DNA of 62,800 nucleotides, counting the filler, from Bipalium vagum (Eukaryota), in assembly GCA_037834085.1 (NCBI GenBank). It is 3 parts of 3 records of this genome, joined end to end, with 100 filler letters (N's around TTAATTAATTAA, not from the genome) between each part and the next. Parts side by side here need not be neighbours in the genome. Positions count along the whole stretch, not along the records: positions 20,355 to 43,662 come from JBBMKC010210595.1; 2 more parts are not named here. One strand, 5' to 3'. Position 1 is the stretch's first letter; each line of letters begins with the position of its first letter. Below are positions 20,355-33,510 of the stretch, piece after piece. Both the position numbers and the translations under genes were made by a program. A model generated the notes under the pieces. It was given only the letters and a program-made list of their open reading frames with translations, did no database searches and was not told the DNA's origin.

Positions 20355-20415
<61 letters not shown>

Positions 20416-23400
20416 TCTTATTATTATTATTATTATTAATTACTGTTACTATTACTTATATTATTTTTTAAATGAAAATTAAAAATGAAAACTTTTTAAA
20501 AAATAAATTAATAAAATTCAATAATTAAAAATATTTTTTATTAATTATTTTAATAAAATCAAATTTACGAAAAAACAATCTCGGAAAATTGGTTTAATAT
20601 TTTTTTTGTCAACTGGAGAAAAAAAGAAATTTTTCTAAACCTTAAGAAAATTATTTGTTGAATTTATTTCGAAATGCCAAAAACTTGTTTCTTCTAAGTA
20701 TGAAATTCAATTTGGAAGAAAACATTAAAGTGAACACAGCATCATCGATAATCAAAGTGGTTCCCACACATGAAGTGGTGAAATATAACGAAAAAACAGC
20801 AGGAGTTTTCCAACATCAAACCACAATTATCAATAGTTTTTATTCGGTATTTTTGTCATTTGAAAAAAGAGATTTTTTTGAGAAATTTAAACAAAATTTA
20901 TTTAATCAATCCGGCAAAAAGATATTCAGTTGTGTTGTTTTCCCTTGACTTTTACGAGCTGTTAGGATTAATAGCATTAAAATTGATGAAGACATTTTTT
21001 CAAATTGATTTTTTTTGTTTTTTGGTTTTGCAATGAGAAAAAAAATGGAGAAATTTGTCTAATTTCAAATGATAATTGTTATTTAAGAAAAATCAAAGTT
21101 CATTTACTGTTTATTTATCTCGAAACATATTTTGTTTTTGTTGGAAGATTACAAAGAAAAGAAATAACAATAACCTCGGTCGCACAGGGAATAGACTGGA
21201 GTCGAGACAGTATTTATGTCAGTTTTTCCAGACTAATTATTCAATGTATATTTCAACAATATATAATACTAAAATCGATCCATTGCTCTAGGTCGGATTT
21301 GAACTCTTTGCTCTCACAAGAGATTTCAATGTCCTCCAAAAAGAGCGTTAATTAAAAGCACGTCGCTAATCATTTCGATGCACATGAGACCAAACTCTTC
21401 CGTTAGTCTTGTGGAAATAATTATTCACTGATGATAATTTCAATAAATTTTCTGTCACGGATTCAAGAGCCTGGTCATTTTTGTTATTAATAGGTCATTG
21501 TTAAATTTTTCGCATTTTAAAACTAAGATCGTTAATCTTCCTGTTCAGATAGAGACACGTAATAGATTACTGTTGACCTTTGGGAATCAATTGTTCGGTA
21601 AAACAAATATCCCCTCAATATTAAATGAACATAATGAGTTTGAAGGAAAACAGATTTTTCTCATTTATTTCTAAAAAAAATATATTGATTTTGTGATTCT
21701 CGTCGAATATATAAAGAATAGTATGTAAAATGTTCAGTATCAAACTTTTTACATCTCAAATTGATACAATTGAATTTCGTTGCTTTCTTAATAATTATAA
21801 ACATTGTTCATTTTATAATCATACAACAAATAATAAAAATAAAAAATAATCTACAACAAATTTTCACAGATAAACTTTGTTTAATTGAATTGAATTTGTT
21901 TTACTGAATCGATTTAACAATCGTTAATAATCATTTATCCATTTTTTTTAAAAAAATCATCCTGTATGTTCACAAGCTGAATAAAAATTAAGACTGATTT
22001 AGTAATAGAAGATTTTCATAAAAAAATTATTAAAATTTCTATTAATTATAAATTAATATTATTACAAAAGTAAAAATATAAAATTAAAATTTTATCAATT
22101 TTCGAAACTAATAATCAGTTCATTTTTTTTATTTTTCGTTTTTAAAATCATTTCACTGACTCGTTCATAATCTTCATCAAATTACAAAATTTTACCCGGT
22201 TAATATCAAATTATACTAATGAAATTGTTTAAATGCATTGTATAAAATATTTAATTGTTTTAACAAAATGAGAAAAAACACAACCTTAATATATCAGAAT
22301 TTAGTTATTAGAAATTAACACAATTATCAACAGTTAAGTAACAATTTATAAAACCTGAAACGAATATCAAAAATAATATTATTATTATCATTATTATTAT
22401 TAAGCGTTTATTAATTCTGAAATTGTAAAATTATAAAAAAATATTTCTCTTATTAAAATCAGTTTTGGTATAAAATGTAATAAATGTATAATTTATAAAG
22501 AATTTTGTCCACGTTTCTCCATTTCTATGTATTGAAATTTATCAAATATTAATGAGATTGTATTGCGAAATATTGTCTCATTTATTTCCTTTTAAATTAA
22601 TAAAATAATTTACAGCAAAATTTCTTTTAGTAGGCCTTAAAATATAAATGATTCACATTATTTTTTAAGAAAGTTATTTTTCTCATTTTATTTTTTAAAA
22701 ATATGAAAGTACAATATTAAAACAATATTATTATATCAACAGGTTAAAACAACTTTTTGTTTTAATAAAGAAAAAACTTTCAAAAAAAAATTACAAATAT
22801 ATTACGTCCTAATATTATTTTTGTTATCAATTGTTTTTTTTATTATATGTTATATAATTTTAATAAAATAAAAATAAATTTCATCATATTCTGTCTGTTA
22901 TAATTAATCAAATAAATTTTGTCGAACATTTCTAGTAGAATTAATTGATTAGCGTTGCGTTAAATTAGATGAATTACATGAGTATAAAACAGGTTAAGCC
23001 TTTTCAATTTTCACTGGGTTTCATAATAATTAATGAATAAAATATTAATAGTTAAAAAATTAAATTCCCAACATAAATTAAAATAGCTGGAAATTTTTTA
23101 TTAAAACATAAATTTTATAATTAATTGAACATGTGAATTATTGAACAAAAAATAGTTACAATTTTACTCTTACTTTCACATAATAATGGAAATTAAGTCA
23201 TTTCCATAACAAAAATAATGTACAATTTTAATGTAAAAAATGAAATTATGATAAGCAAAATAATATATTATAGGAGAAGAATTTTGAAAGTTACCGATTT
23301 AAACAAATTTTTTCATAATTTTTGAATTGAATCAAAATATATTTTATAATATAGGTTATGTAAAAAATTCCACTTTAATAAATATAATTTTTGTCAGTAA

Positions 23401-23520
23401 AATTTTTATTTTAGATAATTTTTATTTTATATTTTGTAAATAAAAAATAAATAAAAATTTTTTTCTATTTAAGATTTTATTTCAATAATTCGTTTTTAAC
23501 TGATTGTTAGTTTTCCTGGT

Positions 23521-23655
23521 GTGGTCGCCATGTTAGTTACTGCCACGTTATCGACAGTTTCAGAATTCAAAAACTGAAGATTTTGTACCATTTTTATTTG
23601 AAGAATATAATTATATATTTTTAATATGTGTCCTCTTTTATCCTTTATTTAAACA
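23521..23655 (-). mobile_element. possible short LTR remnant with tRNA-Arg primer-binding site
   Basis: Minus strand ...CTAACA|TGGCGACCAC: a CA terminus directly followed by a PBS-like 10-mer; TGTT...AACA bounds 23531-23655 with AATAAA on the minus strand; no second LTR. Confidence 0.35.
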
Positions 23656-25329
23656 AATTAATTTTCTAAAACTTTTATTAAAATTAATTTAATTATTTAA
23701 TTTTTTAAAACAATTTAAATTTATTAAAATTATTAAAAATCTTTTTTTACATTAAGGATTAAATTTTAATATATTACTTTAAAAATTATTTTAAAAATAT
23801 TTATGATTTATTATTTAATATTAATTAAAATTTAATCCTTACACTGATAATTTTAATTTAGATAATTAACTGGATAATTAGAAATATTGAAAGTCAGAGC
23901 ACAAAACTATATAAAATAAATTATTTAATTTCAATAAATAAAATATTTTTTCAAAAATTCATTTGAAGAAATATTAAAAAAATTTTAAAATATTTTAAAA
24001 TTAAAAAATCATAAAATAATTTTAAATATTAAATCAAATCTTAAGAATATATAACATAATGTAACTAATTAATTATTAGTAATTAAATTAATTAAAGTTT
24101 GATAGTCAATTTTAGTTTCAATTAAGAAAGAGCTTAATTAAAGTTCGATTTTAAAATTTTATATTTACAATTAATTAAAATTAAATGAAATAATATTAGA
24201 AAGTAGATCCGTTGTTGATGGATCAATTATATTATTAATTAAATAATAATCGTGGATTTGAAAACGTATCTTCCTCCTCTTGCTGACCATTGAACAATGA
24301 CGATACGACAGAAGCAATAACCGTTGAGGGGTGCCCAATCTGACACCGTTGAAAAACGAGAAAAAACAAATCGAAAACCAAGGAAAAGTATAGAGTGAGG
24401 TTGTCGTTAATTAAAAATTTTTCTTGGACACCAGTTTTACATGGCAAAAGACACACGGAGGATCTTGAATAATCTCTAATGAGCATTTAATTTTCACAAA
24501 TAACAAATCCCATGTTTAATTTCCTTTCCTTTTCCTTGTTTAACCGGTTTTAATACAGGAAAGATCATATTTCGATATGCATTCAATTAGTGAGGCGGAA
24601 AGGCCGAGATTCATTAATCCGACTCTTGGTTTTAATTTTCGTTTCTTGTAATGAAAAAATGGACACTTGATTCCTCGTTTTCTTGTATTTTGTGGCATTG
24701 GAAATATCCATATTCGAGAGGGGAAATTTGTAAACTTTTACTTTGTTTTTCGACTACCACAATGGAGAAAATGTTTTTAAATTAATCATATTTTTTTATT
24801 AATTGATTTATTATGTAATGCAGTGTTTTGTTGCTTTTTTACTAGGTTTTCCTTTTTGCTCAAGTCTTGATGAAAAATTCCTTCCTTTCATCCACTATGG
24901 ACATAAAATAGCGGTTGTCAAACCCAACATTAATATTTTCAAGTGTATATTTTTGTTAATTTTATTTTATTGTTTATGGATTTTGAATGGGATGGCCTTT
25001 GAGAGTAAATTTGATAAGAGAGATACGAATGTATAAGTTGAATTGGAGATAAAAAGTAAAAGACTAAAAAAACTCTATCATCTGATCTGGTAAAGGAGTA
25101 CTGAACCATACTTCACCGAGATAATGAATACTTTGAGAAAGATGACCTTTGAGAAAGATCTCTGAAACAACGTTTTGTATGGTATTTGTTATTTTTCCAG
25201 AAAACTTTTGTCTTTGTTTTATCTTTTATAATCAGTTTATGGTAGAAAGGAAAAAAGATAGAAAATATATGATAATAATTTCATAATTTAGAAAAAAAAT
25301 CATTCTTATTTTTGATGAGGAACTAGTAA

Positions 25330-25600
25330 ACAATTCTAGTTTTATTTTACTTAACTTGTTTGCCAACATGCTTGACAAGGAGATCAATAAAAGTAGTCAT
25401 AACATTTTGATAAATAATGGGTATTTTCGAAAATTCCTGTATAATTATTGTTTCCAATTCCTGTAGATTCTTTGGCTGGTGTATATAAACATTATTCTTT
25501 AAATACCCCCATAGGAAAAAATCTGGTATAGTTAAATCAGGGGATCATATTAATCAAGATAGTATGCCACCACGACAAGTACATGTTTTGTTAAAGTTTT
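25330..25600 (-). mobile_element. rosa/DD41D-like transposase C-terminal relic
   Basis: CRGGILS*LI*SPDLTIPDFFLWGYLKNNVYIHQPKNLQELETII. Confidence 0.85.
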
Positions 25601-27689
25601 GATTTATGTAGTTAGTACAGAGAACAATTTTATTTTACTTTACTTTTCACTTTATATTAAAAATTAATGCAATTTTTTTTTAAAGTTTCTTTTATCAATA
25701 AAGTTCACTGAAAAGATAATTTACTAACAGACACAATAGTCGGTTTTGCACAATACCAATATATTTAGAGGTCAATTTCATTTCAACTCCCTGTAAGTGT
25801 TTTCCTTTGTGTATTTGAAGAACATTTGAATAATATTTAATGTTTACGGAACTAAAGTTTTCTGCAAAAAGATATTGCTTTGAATGGAACAAAGGGTAGT
25901 TAAATTACTCAAAGTTTTAACTAAATGACAAATCATATACAAGTTCCCTTCCACACTCCATGATTTCTCTGGAAATATTCTTTGAAATGTGTGTAGTCCT
26001 TTGTGGTCCTGGTGTACAATGCAACCATTTTATATATCATACAAGTGATATTTTTTCATTAAATCTTCTTAACTGGCCTCAATAAACATACATTTTTTTG
26101 TTAATAATCACTTCAAAATAATAAGATAAAGTGTAAAGCAGAAAAACCAAATGAACTTTCAATTCGACTCTACAGTTAGATCCAAAATTTCTTTTAGTAT
26201 TATTTTTCAATTATTATTCAATTGAAAAACATAAAAATTCATTCTATGATAATTCTTGAAATGTAGTTTAAAAAATTGTAAAAACCAAACTTTGGTAAAT
26301 TTATATAAATTTAACTAATATTAAAGGACAATTTTAATATTTATTAATATTTTGTAATAAGACCCACTTATTAATGTTATCAATTTTCCAATTTCAATTC
26401 TCAATTAATATTAAGAAAAATTCTAAATCTGAAACAAATAACATTTCATTTGTTTTTAATTTATTTAATGGATAATATTGTTTTAATTATACAATTTCCA
26501 TTTATCCAATCAATACAAGCACTAAAAGAATATTTTTTTAAAATAAAAATTTGCATTGAAATGCACTTAAATTCCTTTATATGACGATTCCTTTTACCCA
26601 TGGTTTATAAAATACTGTTAATTCTATAATAGAAAATAAGAAATTCTCTAATAATTAATTAATGTTTTTTTTTACACATTTTGATTCTATTCTAAAAAAA
26701 AAGTTAAATTTCATGAAAGCAGACTTTTTATACGTTATAATGAATATTATGATTATTAATAATTTTAAATGCAATTCAGTGATTATGAAATGTGACAAAT
26801 ATAGAGGTAATAAACCTCTAAGGTAAATATTATATAGATTGCTTATTATTATTAAGAGTCTACATATTCTAAATACTTGTCTCAGATATGATGGTAGGTA
26901 GGATGATTATTTCAGCTTTAATATTGAAAATTAGTGGGGAAAAGAAAAAAACTTATAAAATACGATTATAACAATATTCGTATATTTAATAATATTAATC
27001 TTAATACCATAGTCAACTGATATCTAGACTTTAAATGCTAAAAAGGAAATAAATAGAAGAGTTTTTTAAGTCTCCAAGATTACCCGCGAGCAATATAAAA
27101 AAACTCTCTTTTATCATAAGAACGTATTGTACAGGTTATTCAAGAGATACGGGTTATGCAAACCAGAAAGTTAAAATAATCAAGTATGTATTGCGCAATA
27201 GTACTTCAATGAGGGTTATATTGAGATCAAAGTCAATAAAGTCAAGTTTATTTAATTAAATCAGTCAAAAATTTCAACCTCTTCCATTACAGTATGATTA
27301 AAATTGACAATCATATTATTGGGAACTTCAGGTTGATTTGAGTTACTTTCAAAAATACTTTCGTACTATATTTATTGAAAAAAATTATTGAATAATACGT
27401 AGTTTTTTCTTACACAAATATGACATGGTAATTATGTTGAAAAAAAGGAGATATTTCATAATTATGGTAGTACGGTGACACACTAGAGACTTTAGGGTAA
27501 ATTTTTCAGTATATTCTTTTCGGATTTTATACTTTGTTTTATTTTATAACTTTTATTTAAAATTCTCATAAGTGCTTGGACCAATATAAACAATATGAAT
27601 ACCTCTAAGCTTTATTTTGTCCTAAGAATTTTAAAGTTATAAAATTTACATTTATGACATGATAACAATATAAAAAAGAAAATAATGAT

Positions 27690-27977
27690 AGTTAGATCTT
27701 CTTTCATATTAATTAATAAAACGAATTCGAGTTCAAAAAATATTTATTGAAACAAAAGTAATATTTAATCTCGCTGAACATGCTGCCACTTCTTTAGCCA
27801 TTCTATTCTTCTTGTTTAGGTAAATCATCTAGAAGCTTCTTTCTGTTTTGCCTTCTCCTAACGACACTAACATTTTCGGCTTGGTCGCCAGTGCGATCTT
27901 CTTTCATATTAATTAATAAAACTGATTCGAGTTCAAAAGATATTTATTCAAACAAAATTATTATGTAATCTCTAACT
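27690..27977 (-). mobile_element. TRIM-like miniature LTR element (two ~88-bp direct repeats, PBS, ~112-bp non-coding core)
   Basis: Direct repeats 27695-27772 and 27895-27972 (71/78 identical, 200-bp offset); AGT...ACT termini; minus-strand PBS TGGCGACCAAG (27890-27880) overlapping the last base of the repeat; AATAAA in each repeat; flanks ATGAT / ATAAT. Confidence 0.7.
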
Positions 27978-28809
27978 ATAATAAAATCCCAACTTTAGAA
28001 TTTGAACATTTAATAGTCATTTTAGTTCAATAATTGACCAGTAAACATCGCTATAAACCAAAAACTTAAAAAAGCCTAAAAAACGTAAATAATTTTAAAA
28101 TTTTTTTAACCTTAACTAAAACAAAAATTATATTAATATAATTATTATCCAAATAATTGGATTGCATTCTTCTTTTTCATTTGTCTATTATATCTTGGGA
28201 AGGAATTCGTTGATAATGGACAGATTGAAAAAGAAGAAACCAATTTTTTTAATTAAAATATCCAACGAAAAAAATCTATTATCATTTTTTTTTATCAGAA
28301 AATTTATTTTTCAATATTTATTAAATAATTAAAATTATAGAAATGATTTTTGTGATTTAATAAAAGAAAACACTAATTAATTGATATTTAACGGAAATTC
28401 GAGATAAAAGAAAAATAAAAGAAATAATTTCAAAATAAATAAACCACTTCAAAAACATTATTTATATTTTCTATCAAGACTTTACTGGAAAAATGATAGA
28501 ACAACTATTTACTGTTACCAGCCATTGCAACAGTGACCAAACCGTTGGGAAAGTTTAAATTAGAATCAGGCCTTGGTAATCATCAGTAAGATTTCCCAGT
28601 TAACCATCGAGTTGAGCCACTTGATTGAAGGGATAATAATAATTCTCATTATTAAATTTAATTGGTGTTCGTTGAATTTCTTGCTTTCCACATTAAAATT
28701 CTGCAAATCTTATCAAGAAAAATCGTGCCTAATTAAAAATTGGTTTTCATGTTTTTTCATTATATAAAAATACATATGTTTATTTCCATAACCTTTCCTG
28801 GTCTGCCAG

Positions 28810-28952
28810 CATGTAAACAGAAGGAAGAAGAACAATATCGTCCAAGCGAATCGAAAAATTCCAAAAAACCCAGACTGGTTTTCACAGATATTCAAAGAAG
28901 AACTCTCCATGCAATCTTTAAAGAAACCAAACGTCCAAGCAAAGAAATGCAA
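28810..28952 (+). CDS. onecut: onecut (HNF6-class) exon: end of CUT-HD linker and homeodomain helices 1-2
   Basis: tctgccag|CA TGT AAA (conserved phase-1 A|ACKxKE junction); CKQKEEEQYRPSESKNSKKPRLVFTDIQRRTLHAIFKETKRPSKEMQ|gtaata. Confidence 0.96.
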
Positions 28953-29077
28953 GTAATAAATTGTTTGCTCTCATGAATGAAACCTTTTTCACAAGATCAA
29001 AATGTATTTTTTGTTAACATTTATTGTTTCTTTACAAGAATTATTAACAAGTTATTTAATAAAAAAAATTAATTCAG

Positions 29078-29992
29078 GCTACAATAGCTCAACAGTTGGG
29101 TCTAGAGGTGGCTACGGTAGCAAACTTTTTCATGAATGCCAGACGACGGTCTTTGGATAAATGGAAGGAAGAGTGTCAAAGAAAACGAGGAAACAATGCC
29201 TGTGGAACTGTGGGAGATGAATCAATATCTTCAGTCAATTCTCCAGTATCTTCGACGGCCGAATCAGACTGTCCAGAGGCATCTACGAAAAATGATACTG
29301 ACAACAATTCATTTTTTTTCCCTAATAACTCGCTCTTTGATGGTATGAATTGTCATATTGCAGACAGCTTATTATCTGGCCAATTACCTACAACCTCAAT
29401 GACACACAATCCAAATGACCCTTTAAATTCATTTGCCGCTTTAAACCCTTATTCAATGGTTAATCCCAGACTTCAAGCTTATCACAAAGGTTACCAAAAT
29501 TCCATATCATCTGATGTTGCAGATGGTTTCAATACAACTCAGAAAAAAACCCCACAAAGTGATCGTAATTGTATAAATTATCGAAATAATTGTCAAAATA
29601 CATCATTTTCCCAAAATGGATATTATCCTTCCCCGTTTGTGTCCAATGTCGATTACATGTTACAACATCACGGAAATTCAGCCCAAACAACCGATGATTT
29701 GATATGTTCAGATTTTTATATGTCTCGGTCTAGAGATTTTGTAAACAACTTTTTGTCAATAGAAACCAAGCCTGATAAGTCGATTCATCACCCCAACAAA
29801 TATAACTCAATTCTCAAAGATGCACTCGACTTTTCCAATGGAGATGACAATAACAATGAAATAGTTGCTCCAATAACGTCCCTATCATCCAGTCCAAATG
29901 TTGAATTCATAAGCAAACCAAATCAAATTTCCACTGTCCATACCCAACGTGGTTCCATCTCAGTCTCAGGAGCCACGATTAATGTTAACTAA
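29078..29992 (+). CDS. onecut: onecut terminal exon: homeodomain helix 3 plus ~275-aa tail
   Basis: aattcag|GCT after a 125-nt phase-0 intron; ATIAQQLGLEVATVANFFMNARRRSLDKW carries the onecut-diagnostic F48/M50; open to TAA at 29992; AATAAA at about 30236. Confidence 0.96.
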   Translation, partial: ATIAQQLGLEVATVANFFMNARRRSLDKWKEECQRKRGNNACGTVGDESISSVNSPVSSTAESDCPEASTKNDTDNNSFFFPNNSLFDGMNCHIADSLLSGQLPTTSMTHNPNDPLNSFAALNPYSMVNPRLQAYHKGYQNSISSDVADGFNTTQKKTPQSDRNCINYRNNCQNTSFSQNGYYPSPFVSNVDYMLQHHGNSAQTTDDLICSDFYMSRSRDFVNNFLSIETKPDKSIHHPNKYNSILKDALDFSNGDDNNNEIVAPITSLSSSPNVEFISKPNQISTVHTQRGSISVSGATINVN

Positions 29993-30065
29993 TTTTATTT
30001 TGCTCATTCTTAGAGTTCATTCTATAAATGAATTGTATTAATAACATCTGAAGTTTAACTAAATT

Positions 30066-30210
30066 AATAATAATTATTATTAAAATTACTATTGTTATTA
30101 TGATTATTATGATTATTATTATTTATATTATTATGATTATTATTATTTATATTATTATTATTATTATTATCATTATTATTATCATTATTATTTTTATTAT
30201 TATTTTATTA
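30066..30210. repeat. degenerate (TAT)n in the onecut 3' UTR
   Basis: Imperfect TAT/GAT/CAT tandem units. Confidence 0.8.
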
Positions 30211-31149: not shown

Positions 31150-31480
31150 CATGTGAAGGTCTTGGATTCGAATTCCGATATCTTCGATTAAGTTTCAACT
31201 AACCAACGACAACATTGCAAAAGTTGGAGAAGCAATCAGGATGGATCGTAAAATTTGTGTTCGTCATCTTGCAGAATTGCTAAATATGAACAGAGAAGGT
31301 GTTCCACGCATTTTAACACAGGCCTTAGGCATGAAGAAAGTTTGTGCAAAATTTGTTCCTAAAGTCTTGTCATACGAACAAAGGCAAAACAGAGCCAATG
31401 TTTGTTCTGATATCTTGGAACGAATTGATGAAGATAATAGTTTTTTAAATAACATTATTACGGGTGATGAGACGTTATAT
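31150..31480 (+). mobile_element. mariner relic (irritans-like)
   Basis: DRKICVRHLAELLNM...RILTQALGMKKVCAKFVPKVLSYEQRQNR...FLNNIITGDET. Confidence 0.9.
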
Positions 31481-31699
31481 AGATATCGAAAAATTGCTAG
31501 ATGCTTAGAGTGCATAGAAATCCGGAAAATATTTATATTACGTTGTATCAAAAGTTTTCGTGATTTTTATAGTTTAATTTTCTTTTATCAAAATAAATAT
31601 TTTTAATAATAATTTTTAAAATTTGATATTTTACTATCAAACTATATTGGTAAGTTTTATTTAAATAAACATATCAATGTATTTATTTGAATTTATAAT

Positions 31700-33510
31700 T
31701 ATAGTGAAATGCATACTGTAAACTTGCAATTCGAGGTTTGTTTCGTCATTGTTGAAAAAATGTATTTAATATTTTCATATTGAAGGTGTTGTTATCTATA
31801 GCAAAGTATCATATTAGTTCTAAAAGGTTTCTAAACGGAGATACTATTCTCGAAGATAAGCTCTGACCAAAAATAAATGATAAATGAAGGGGTTTTACAC
31901 GAAGCATTAATTGATCATTCACATGCCTTGGAAATCGGTAAAAATCTTTTGCAAAATCCTACACATGATCCATTTTGATGTCCCATTGCTATTACAGATC
32001 AAAAATGGATTTATTATATTAATCGATCGTAAATTAAATGTTGAATATTACATGACCAACCTCCTGCAACAAGTGTCCATAAAAATCAATTAGAAGAAAA
32101 GGTAATAATCAGTGTTTGGTTTAATTATTAGGTTGGTACAAAAATAATGCATCTTTTATAACTTCAAAACTTAGCATATCATAAGTCGGACCAAACAAAC
32201 ATTTATTATTCAAAGTAACATCCTTGTGATTCCACACATTTCTGCCAACGCAAAATAAGCTTGATGGTACCAGAGAAACATAGAAATCCGTTTGTGTGCA
32301 CCTCACAAATTCCAAAAAGGTATTTTCAGCATCGGCTTGGTTGTTGAAGCACTTACCTTGAAGGAAGTTTTGTAGATGTTTGAAAAAGTGGAAGTCTGTT
32401 GGTGCTAAGTCTGGGGAATATGGAAGATGGGGCAGAATTTCGTAACCCAATTCGTTAATTTTCTGTAAGGTTGATATTGCGATGTGTGGTCTGGCATTAT
32501 CCTGAAGAATGATTGGTCCTTTTCTGTTTACCAAAGCTGGACTCAAAATTTGTAATTTTTGGTGCATATCGTTGATTTGCTGACAGTAACTGTTGCACGT
32601 AATCGTTTTTCCAGGATCCAGGAAATTCAAATGGATCAAACCATGTTCGCACCACCAAACAGTTATCATTACCTTTTTCTGTTGCAATTTTTGTTTCGGA
32701 AAGGTTTTGGAGGTTCACTTTTGTCCAGCTATTGACTAGAGCGTTGCCTATTATCGTACAAATCTATTTCTCATCACATGTTACAATTATATTGAGAAAT
32801 GGATCGTTTTTGTTACGAAAAAGAAGGGAAGACGCAACTTCAAAGCGACGTAATTTTTGGTTTGCATTGACCTCGTGTGGCACCCATTTGTCCAGCTTCT
32901 TCACTTTTCCAATTTGTCCAAGGTGTATCACAATTGTTGAATGATGAACCTGAAGTTCTTTTGCAACTTCTCTTGTGGTTTTCCTAGAATCAGATTCGAT
33001 GGCAGCCTCTAATTGATCATTTTCTACAGCTGATGGACGACCACGACCTTCTTTATCCTCCAGACTATAATTATTGTTTTCAAACTTTAAGAACCAACTC
33101 TGAACTGTTGTTTTGTTCACGCTCCCTATGCCCCATACTGCATTAATATTTTGTGCTGTTTACGCAGCGCTTCTGCCTAACTTGAACTCATAAAAATATA
33201 TTTTACGGAAGTCCTTTTTCGACATCTAAAACACATAGTTTTCATTTCTAAATAAATTATGAAATATTTAAATTTACTTTAAATTATTAATTAATTAATG
33301 CTCTTAAACAGGTGAATATTACTAAGAATAACAATTAGATTTTAAAAAGGGTATTGTTTAGTTAAAAAATGCTTTAGTTATACAATGCAAAAAGATGCAT
33401 TATTTTTGCACCAACCTAATATGAAGATGTATTTATTTATACATGAAGATTCATTTAGATTTTATACCATATGGTCTTGCAGTGAATGTGGTTTTTATTT
33501 TTAAAAATAA
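31700..33510 (+). mobile_element. old mariner relic interrupted by the 32128-33419 element
   Basis: Left part ITDQKWIYYIN...KNQLEEKVIISVWFN-Y; resumes after the insertion as YE...IHLDFIPYGLAVN (KVM..VWWNYEGV.HFE..P.G..VN motif). Confidence 0.7.
32128..33419 (-). mobile_element. full-length (1292 bp) mariner, cecropia/Hsmar1-like, DD34D transposase pseudogene
   Basis: 30-bp TIRs TTAGGTTGGT(A/G)CAAAAATAATGCATCTTTT with one mismatch; TA target duplication at 32126-27 and 33420-21; ATG at 33225; WVPHEV, TCDEK, QDNARPH, YSPDLAPTD with 34 residues between D2 and D3; three premature stops and two frameshifts. Confidence 0.97.

What the first reader, a model, noticed from the sequence alone, without database searches (positions are those of the whole stretch)
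27688..27982. 288-bp TRIM-like element whose outer termini differ from its inner termini in a complementary way
Seen: two ~88-bp direct repeats exactly 200 bp apart (cores 71/78 identical) enclosing a 112-bp non-coding core. On the minus strand the 5' repeat ends GATCGCACT and runs into TGGCGACCAAG. The outer ends form a perfect inverted repeat (ATAGTTAGA 27688-96 / TCTAACTAT 27971-79), but the equivalent inner ends read AGTGCGA and TCGCTGA, so both outer ends carry TTA/TAA where the inner ends carry GC. Flanks are ATGAT / ATAAT. Known: TGGCGACC is the tRNA-Arg PBS of 412/mdg1-type Ty3/Gypsy elements; AGT...ACT termini with a one-base PBS overlap occur in insect gypsy-type elements; TRIMs are known from tapeworms. 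Inference: a very small non-autonomous retroelement in the onecut upstream intron. Reverse transcription should make both LTRs identical, so matched outer-end differences might indicate a hybrid LTR/TIR mode of mobility. They could also be post-insertion mutation. No polypurine tract abuts the 3' repeat.
Basis: partly seen in the sequence, partly recalled or inferred. Interest (0 to 1): 0.7.

Follow-up and report, generated by a model that had tools for sequence, protein, structure and literature searches.

The report
Decayed stub of a Gypsy retrotransposon
This 288-base piece is what is left of one copy of a common jumping gene after it lost most of its middle, and its oddly mismatched ends appear in no other copy examined, so it is likely an ordinary dead fossil and not a new kind of mobile element.

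Summary
The locus is one heavily deleted copy of a multicopy Ty3/Gypsy LTR family. The family has 88-bp LTRs reading AGTTAGA...TCTAACT at both 5' and 3' LTRs, a tRNA-Arg primer site, a purine tract, 5-bp target duplications, and internal pieces with RT, RNase H and integrase.

The 'complementary inner ends' are two private lesions. One is a two-base substitution at the 5' LTR end (GC in 1 of 57 genome matches, this copy). The other is a 12-13-bp deletion that removed the purine tract and the first bases of the 3' LTR, so TCGCTGA is mostly internal sequence, not a terminus. The 9-bp outer inverted repeat is the family's 7-bp LTR terminal repeat plus 2 bases of target duplication.

The 'non-coding core' is the gag start fused to the pol end at a 7-bp microhomology. 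No second copy with that join was found, and other two-LTR copies carry different deletions. This is not a TRIM family, and nothing supports hybrid LTR/TIR mobility. The scan had not noted this sequence on other DNA. Ordinary.

The parts
27978..27982 (-). Target-site duplication, 5' side (ATTAT on the minus strand)
   Evidence: The family's TSD length is 5 bp: 12 of 15 other solo or two-LTR copies match at >=4/5. This copy matches 4/5 with 27685-89.
27890..27977 (-). 5' LTR, 88 bp; begins AGTTAGA, ends TCGCACT
   Evidence: 86-91% identical to LTRs at dozens of loci; boundaries fixed by unrelated flanks in other copies.
27893..27894 (-). Private two-base substitution near the inner end of the 5' LTR (GC where most copies have TA)
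   Evidence: GC in 1 of 57 exact genome matches (this copy), TA in 43 of 57; TA in 29 of 34 and GC in 0 of 34 other 5' LTRs.
27878..27890 (-). Primer binding site for tRNA-Arg, sharing its first T with the last LTR base
   Evidence: 12 of 13 complementary to the 3' end (plus CCA) of the tRNA-Arg(ACG) gene in L075.
27811..27907 (-). Remnant of the likely gag start; the frame opens at an ATG inside the LTR (27905-07) and runs through the LTR end and PBS
   Evidence: Matches the first ~80 bp behind the 5' LTR of other copies. Differences between subfamilies are highest at third codon positions in this frame. In other copies the frame leads on to zinc-knuckle-like motifs (read by eye).
27811..27817 (-). 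7-bp microhomology AAACAAG at the join of the large internal deletion (about 4 kb, inferred)
   Evidence: Hits to 5' copies end at 27811 and hits to 3' copies end at 27817 (query 152 and 158); both sides carry AAACAAG. The join is found only here.
27773..27817 (-). Remnant of the last pol (integrase tail) codons and the sequence before the purine tract
   Evidence: 84-92% identical to the stretch just before the 3' LTR of six two-LTR copies. In L076, L083, L055, L043 and L134 that region maps to residues 998-1022 at the end of an intact relative's pol.
27771..27772 (-). Join of a private 12-13-bp deletion (2-bp microhomology GA) that removed the polypurine tract and the first 5-7 bases of the 3' LTR
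   Evidence: Spacer 0 here against 10-13 nt in 11 of 11 other family junctions; pairwise alignments; public-run contigs also show the purine tract at this place (table 5c).
27690..27772 (-). 3' LTR remnant, 83 bp; outer end TCTAACT intact
   Evidence: 72 of 81 identical to the 5' LTR over positions 8-88.
27685..27689 (-). Target-site duplication, 3' side (ATCAT on the minus strand)
   Evidence: 4/5 match to ATTAT; chance about 4%; same length as the family's TSD.

Best explanation
This is a single, internally deleted copy of a multicopy Ty3/Gypsy LTR retrotransposon family, likely immobile, whose mismatched inner ends are private lesions that likely arose after it integrated. Steps: (1) An element of this family, primed by tRNA-Arg (PBS shown, priming inferred), was inserted by integrase, leaving the family's 5-bp target duplication (shown) and identical LTRs (inferred). 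(2) About 4 kb between two AAACAAG words was lost (join shown, size inferred), most likely by microhomology-mediated deletion in the chromosome, as in sibling copies that each lost different parts; a template switch during reverse transcription cannot be excluded. (3) A second deletion at a GA microhomology removed the purine tract and the start of the 3' LTR (shown). (4) Point changes accumulated to 11% LTR divergence, among them the TA-to-GC doublet (shown). [quoted passage not shown] Without a purine tract it would not prime plus-strand synthesis.
For: Other genome hits cover either 5' LTR + 80 bp or 37 bp + 3' LTR, none the whole element (40 of 225 candidates scored). Beyond those points the copies run on into RT, RNase H and integrase. 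Ends are the same type on 5' and 3' LTRs. GC doublet in 1 of 57. Purine-tract deletion in 1 of 12 family junctions. Internal join in 1 place. TSD signal at 5 bp only: 0.747 identity against 0.379 mean and 0.56 maximum in 20,000 shuffled pairings; 3, 4, 6 and 7 bp are at background. Nine other two-LTR copies of 656-2921 bp keep different parts of pol. LTR divergence of 0.11 lies within the 0.06-0.23 of eight siblings. Two adjacent mismatch pairs among 9 of 81 is unremarkable (P=0.22).
Against: The assembly is fragmented (272,664 contigs) and DNA searches score only the best candidates. At 20% divergence the junction pattern would miss 5 copies with probability 0.47 (0.12 at 15%). The one public run confirmed both flanks and outer ends but listed no contig across the inner joins, so these rest on one assembly. 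The timing of the large deletion is not determined. The window's own TSD has 1 mismatch (chance 4%). No complete parent copy was found; its size is inferred from relatives.
Confidence: 0.9

Rival explanations
1. Nascent or low-copy TRIM: the large deletion arose by template switching at AAACAAG during reverse transcription, and the ~300-bp form was integrated as such, once or a few times, before losing its purine tract. This differs from the best explanation only in the timing of step 2 and is partly compatible with it.
For: The core keeps the PBS, about 80 bp behind it and the stretch before the purine tract, close to a minimal cis set. A single 7-bp microhomology join fits template switching. 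TRIMs are thought to derive from internal deletions of larger elements (PMC4717578, abstract and passages).
Against: No second copy of the join. Siblings show several different deletions each, which fits gradual loss in place. This copy has a second deletion that must be post-insertion.
Confidence: 0.2
2. Hybrid LTR/TIR mobility: the element moves through its outer inverted repeats, and the inner ends are free to differ or co-vary.
For: The outer ends form a perfect 9-bp inverted repeat and the inner ends share 4 complementary bases (TCGC/GCGA).
Against: 7 of the 9 bases are the terminal inverted repeat that the family's LTRs carry, solo LTRs included. The other 2 come from the TSD, which happens for about 11% of random 5-mers. 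One 'inner end' is not an LTR end. The asymmetry is single-copy. The TSD has the family's integrase length.
Confidence: 0.02
3. Linked fold-back event: the two inner lesions arose together when the inner 7-bp inverted repeats, about 120 bp apart, paired in single-stranded DNA, deleting the purine tract and templating GC into the 5' LTR end.
For: Both lesions hit the inner inverted repeats, and the new GC is complementary to the bases next to the deletion join.
Against: Only 4 bases pair, fewer than the 7 of unaltered ends. The element folds no better than shuffles (z=0.31). Adjacent substitutions are expected at this divergence.
Confidence: 0.05
4. Assembly artefact or local tandem duplication.
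For: Short-read, fragmented assembly; no independent contig was listed across the inner joins.
Against: Both flanks with their outer LTR ends match a public run with 0 differences (27400-27717; 27904-28060). The flanks form a TSD of the family's length. PBS and gag start follow one repeat and the pol tail precedes the other, in the family's order, which a tandem duplication would not give. Overlaps of 7 and 2 bases are too short for an assembler to join on (general knowledge).
Confidence: 0.03

Closest known systems
Ty3/Gypsy (Metaviridae) LTR retrotransposons, internally deleted copies
   Same: Two LTRs, tRNA PBS, PPT and TSD in the family. RT, RNase H and integrase in family copies. Order protease-RT-RNase H-integrase in close intact relatives. 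An RT piece hits Ty3 Gag-Pol in the PDB at E 4e-5, and a caulimovirus-type polyprotein about equally. Decay by deletions at microhomologies is described in PMC1940013 (passages).
   Different: Short 86-89-bp LTRs with AGT...ACT ends instead of TG...CA. The gag frame appears to open inside the LTR. The clade was not determined.
TRIMs, e.g. taeniid ta-TRIM (PMC4558846) and plant TRIMs (PMC4717578)
   Same: Small, two short LTRs, PBS, TSD, no coding capacity.
   Different: ta-TRIMs have TG...CA LTRs of about 198 bp, a tRNA-Leu PBS, a PPT and at least 142 full-length copies (section 17). This element has no PPT, one copy of its structure, and a core of gag and pol scraps.
412/mdg1 and Mag lineages (features recalled, not tested)
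   Same: tRNA-Arg PBS (412/mdg1, recalled); short LTRs and 5-bp TSD (Mag, recalled). PMC3286476 (passages) reports Culex Mag-like elements with Leu or Ser PBS and one with Arg.
   Different: No named reference sequences were available for a tree; the closest hits were unnamed. Membership is open.

Membership tests
TRIM | Two short LTRs, total size under about 1 kb | tested here: met
   288 bp; 88-bp LTR and 83-bp remnant.
TRIM | PBS behind the 5' LTR | tested here: met
   12 of 13 to tRNA-Arg(ACG).
TRIM | PPT before the 3' LTR | tested here: not met
   Deleted here; a 10-13-nt spacer holding the tract and LTR start is present in 11 of 11 other family junctions.
TRIM | Target-site duplication | tested here: met
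   ATTAT/ATCAT, 4/5; family TSD is 5 bp.
TRIM | Amplified as a unit: dispersed copies share the same short interior | tested here: not met
   Join found only in the window; nine other two-LTR copies have different interiors. Limited by the fragmented assembly.
TRIM | Transcribed and mobilised in trans | not testable with these tools
   No RNA holder listed, which is no evidence either way.
Ty3/Gypsy (parent family) | pol order protease-RT-RNase H-integrase | tested here: met
   RNase H before integrase in L029, RT before RNase H in L091. Family copies map collinearly on P0001, whose order is PR 12-47, RT 220-379, RH 443-573, IN 691-858.
Ty3/Gypsy (parent family) | LTRs with terminal inverted repeat, PBS, PPT, fixed-length TSD, solo LTRs | tested here: met
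   seven solo LTRs, 5 of 7 with >=4/5 TSD.
Ty3/Gypsy (parent family) | RT groups with Ty3/Gypsy in a tree | not tested
   Only similarity searches were run; no tree was built.
412/mdg1 lineage | tRNA-Arg PBS (recalled feature) | tested here: met
412/mdg1 lineage | RT clade membership | not tested
   No named references were at hand; top hits are unnamed.
MITE / TIR-mobilised element | Terminal inverted repeats specific to the outer ends | tested here: not met
   The 7-bp repeat is the terminal repeat of each family LTR, inner ends and solo LTRs included.
MITE / TIR-mobilised element | Many copies of uniform size | tested here: not met
   One copy of this structure.

The most novel reading that the evidence does not exclude
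A TRIM caught at birth: a ~300-bp mini-element made by a template switch at AAACAAG during reverse transcription, holding little more than the LTRs, PBS and PPT of its parent, jumped as such and may have siblings hidden by the fragmented assembly. Its inner ends were damaged afterwards, possibly in one fold-back event between the inner inverted repeats. It would be one of few animal TRIMs with its autonomous parent and exact deletion join known.
Probability: 0.15. Interest if true: 0.35.

Novelty: new member of a known kind. Interest (0 to 1): 0.1.

Why it matters
Little, as it stands: it is one more decayed LTR retrotransposon copy. It does show how a deletion that removes the purine tract can mimic a 'different inner terminus', and how an ATnAT target site can lengthen the apparent terminal inverted repeat. 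The parent family is of modest interest to transposon cataloguers: very short AGT...ACT LTRs, tRNA-Arg priming, 5-bp TSD, a gag frame opening inside the LTR, at least three subfamilies. I found no description of it in two searches (both 0 papers), which are narrow and do not cover Repbase or Dfam. Had the asymmetry been fixed in a family it would have challenged the rule that reverse transcription equalises LTRs; it is not.

Tried and rejected
Hybrid LTR/TIR mobility, TRIM family and tandem duplication: rejected (see rivals). TSD lengths of 3, 4, 6 and 7 bp were at background. DNA folding of the element gave z=0.31, so no special structure. Six-frame Pfam scan of 20355-30100 in 3,248-residue frames gave 0 families; it was too diluted, and short pieces gave weak homeodomain hits. 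The CUT domain was not found on this contig. Clade assignment failed because the best homologues are unnamed; alignment A1 was not used further. Expression: no RNA holder listed. Public run X1 listed no contig across the inner joins; a hole there proves nothing, and X1 may be the source sample.

Rows dropped or corrected. In one search the purine-tract classifier was off by one and flagged nothing, so 3' LTRs were re-picked. Of its 24 rows, 2 (L076:535, L047) are not 3' LTRs and L020's boundary was misplaced; of the remaining 22, 21 show a purine-rich spacer and an AGTTAGA-like start, and L094 is rearranged. De-duplication also dropped some real copies (e.g. L029). The TSD test left out L094 and L096 (ends degraded), and its 15 boundaries were set by hand at the LTR motifs. 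In one search, 4 of 16 matches (L101, L109, L110, L111) are unrelated sequence. One search's 57 matches include sister subfamilies. Paper searches gave background only; two gave 0 papers. No supplements were read.

Full report
Observation. The window is a pack of three stretches; the finding lies in the second, which is contig C210595 of a 441-Mb, AT-rich assembly of 272,664 contigs. Two earlier scan notes call the host a planarian; I did not test this. The two repeats are 200 bp apart and 71 of 78 identical in the core.

The element belongs to a family. A search of the own genome with 27660-28010 gave 41 matches from 40 scored of 225 candidates. Apart from the window, none spans the element; the longest covers 181 of 351 bases. 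Most cover query 152-325 (right repeat plus 80 bp) and the others 20-158 (left repeat plus 37 bp). On the minus strand these are 5' ends (LTR, PBS, then sequence running on) and 3' ends (sequence, purine tract, LTR) of a longer element. Read with X at stops, 27 frames of nine family loci gave Pfam hits to RT (L091, E 7e-10), RNase H (L083, L061, L023, L029, L091) and integrase (L029, E 1e-5). A better-preserved RT-RNase H frame from a related subfamily (L148, about 65% DNA identity to family copies) finds intact pol proteins of 1013-1030 aa on contigs of 4.3-4.4 kb at 73-82% identity. Their order is protease, RT, RNase H, integrase, the Ty3/Gypsy order. Family copies map collinearly on one of them. 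The parent was therefore about 4.3-4.5 kb (inferred), and this copy lacks about 4 kb.

The inner end of the 5' LTR. An exact scan for the LTR end plus PBS with three free positions gave 57 matches against 1 for the control pattern. The two bases in question read TA in 43 and GC in 1, the window. Among 34 other 5' LTRs of the same subfamily, 29 read TA and none GC. It is a private doublet. The window's LTR pair has 9 mismatches in 81 comparable positions, with two adjacent pairs; chance gives two or more in 22% of trials.

The inner end of the 3' LTR. A scan allowing 0-14 bases between TTCAGCGA and GATTANATA gave 16 matches, of which 12 are family junctions and 4 unrelated. Eleven have a 10-13-base spacer, a purine run followed by an AGTTAGA-like LTR start; the window has none. 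Pairwise alignments show a clean 12-13-base gap with a GA microhomology. Of 22 3' LTRs collected more widely, 21 keep this arrangement and one is rearranged otherwise (after dropping two misclassified rows). Contigs of a public run show the same purine tract at this place in other copies. So TCGCTGA is five bases of internal sequence plus two shared bases, not a terminus. The deletion also explains the missing PPT.

The outer inverted repeat and TSD. AGTTAGA/TCTAACT is the commonest start and end of both 5' and 3' LTRs and of solo LTRs. Across 15 other solo or two-LTR copies, flank identity is 0.747 at 5 bp against a shuffled mean of 0.379 (maximum 0.56 in 20,000), with 12 of 15 at 4/5 or better; other lengths are at background (boundaries hand-set, two degraded copies left out). 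The window's ATTAT/ATCAT is such a 5-bp TSD with one change (chance 4%). Its AT...AT form adds the two extra bases of the 9-bp repeat, which about 11% of random 5-mers would do.

The core. 27811-27889 matches the first 80 bases behind the 5' LTR of other copies, and 27773-27817 the last bases before the purine tract. They overlap in AAACAAG, which both sides of the family carry. The 5' piece lies in a frame that opens inside the LTR and varies most at third positions between subfamilies. The 3' piece is the end of pol. The PBS matches this genome's tRNA-Arg(ACG) at 12 of 13.

Is the short form a family? A DNA search with the 86 bases around the join gave 5 hits, with only the window complete; L033 covers 73 bases but continues into gag by a different deletion. 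A 32-base pattern with up to 3 mismatches over the whole assembly found the window and one ordinary 3' end. The pattern would miss 10 copies at 15% divergence with probability 0.014, and 5 copies at 20% with 0.47, so a small old family is not fully excluded. Nine other two-LTR copies of 656-2921 bp each retain different parts. LTR divergence in eight of them is 0.06-0.23, and the window's is 0.11. TRIMs by definition keep LTRs, PBS and PPT (PMC4558846, sections 3 and 17 read). Loss by deletions at microhomologies is a described fate of LTR elements (PMC1940013, passages).

Mechanism. Shown: family membership, TSD, PBS, both deletion joins, private doublet. Inferred: tRNA-Arg priming, integrase insertion and the order of events. 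The element's RNA lacks the first part of the 5' LTR and the last part of the 3' LTR (PMC4558846, section 3), so these outer ends are rebuilt from the inner ends at each cycle. Canonical outer ends beside damaged inner ends therefore date the damage to after the last cycle. The asymmetry is what decay of one copy gives; it needs no second mode of mobility. Whether the large deletion happened in the chromosome or during reverse transcription is open; siblings with several deletions each favour the first.

Limits. The inner joins rest on one assembly, although both flanks and outer ends match a public run exactly, which may be the same sample. The clade was not determined. The intronic position in onecut is likely but unproven. 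Expression could not be tested. The scan's earlier notes hold no look-alike of this sequence; the two LTR notes in this genome concern a different, tRNA-bearing element.

Verdict. A new, unnamed member of a known kind: a dead, deleted Ty3/Gypsy copy. Interest 0.1.

Noticed in passing
window 27811-27907 (-); loci L081, L083, L115, L127, L133, L137: The likely gag frame opens at an ATG inside the last 30 nt of the 5' LTR (in-frame ATG in 22 of 32, 12 of 12 and 3 of 6 copies of three subfamilies) and reads through the LTR end and PBS. Net differences between subfamilies are highest at third positions (0.20, 0.19, 0.30, against 0.07, 0.10, 0.05 at second positions). Ty1 has a similar overlap (recalled).
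   Followed up: partly
L069:109-200 (G000:C104860): A tRNA-Arg(ACG)-like copy with CCA encoded and directly followed by TGTTAGTTG. It looks like a whole primer tRNA copied next to a TG...CA-type LTR end of another family.
   Followed up: no
L015 (G000:C101050, about 2890-2985): One LTR with a purine tract upstream and a PBS downstream: a shared-LTR junction between tandem elements.
   Followed up: no
L115-L144; L132:664-1319; L134:1426-2754: At least two sister subfamilies with 86-bp LTRs and the same PBS. L132 (656 bp) and L134 (1329 bp) are deleted two-LTR copies with 91-94% LTR identity.
   Followed up: partly
window 28737-29992 (+): Onecut-like homeodomain in two exons; the CUT-domain exon is not on this contig.
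   Followed up: partly
window 31157-33159: ORF pieces that look like mariner/Tc1 transposase remnants (by eye). A transposase remnant also interrupts family copy L088.
   Followed up: no
G000:C197135, C196613, C194885: Open frames of 1077-1138 aa with 42-45% identity to the RT query: more distant, better-preserved LTR retrotransposon families in this genome.
   Followed up: no
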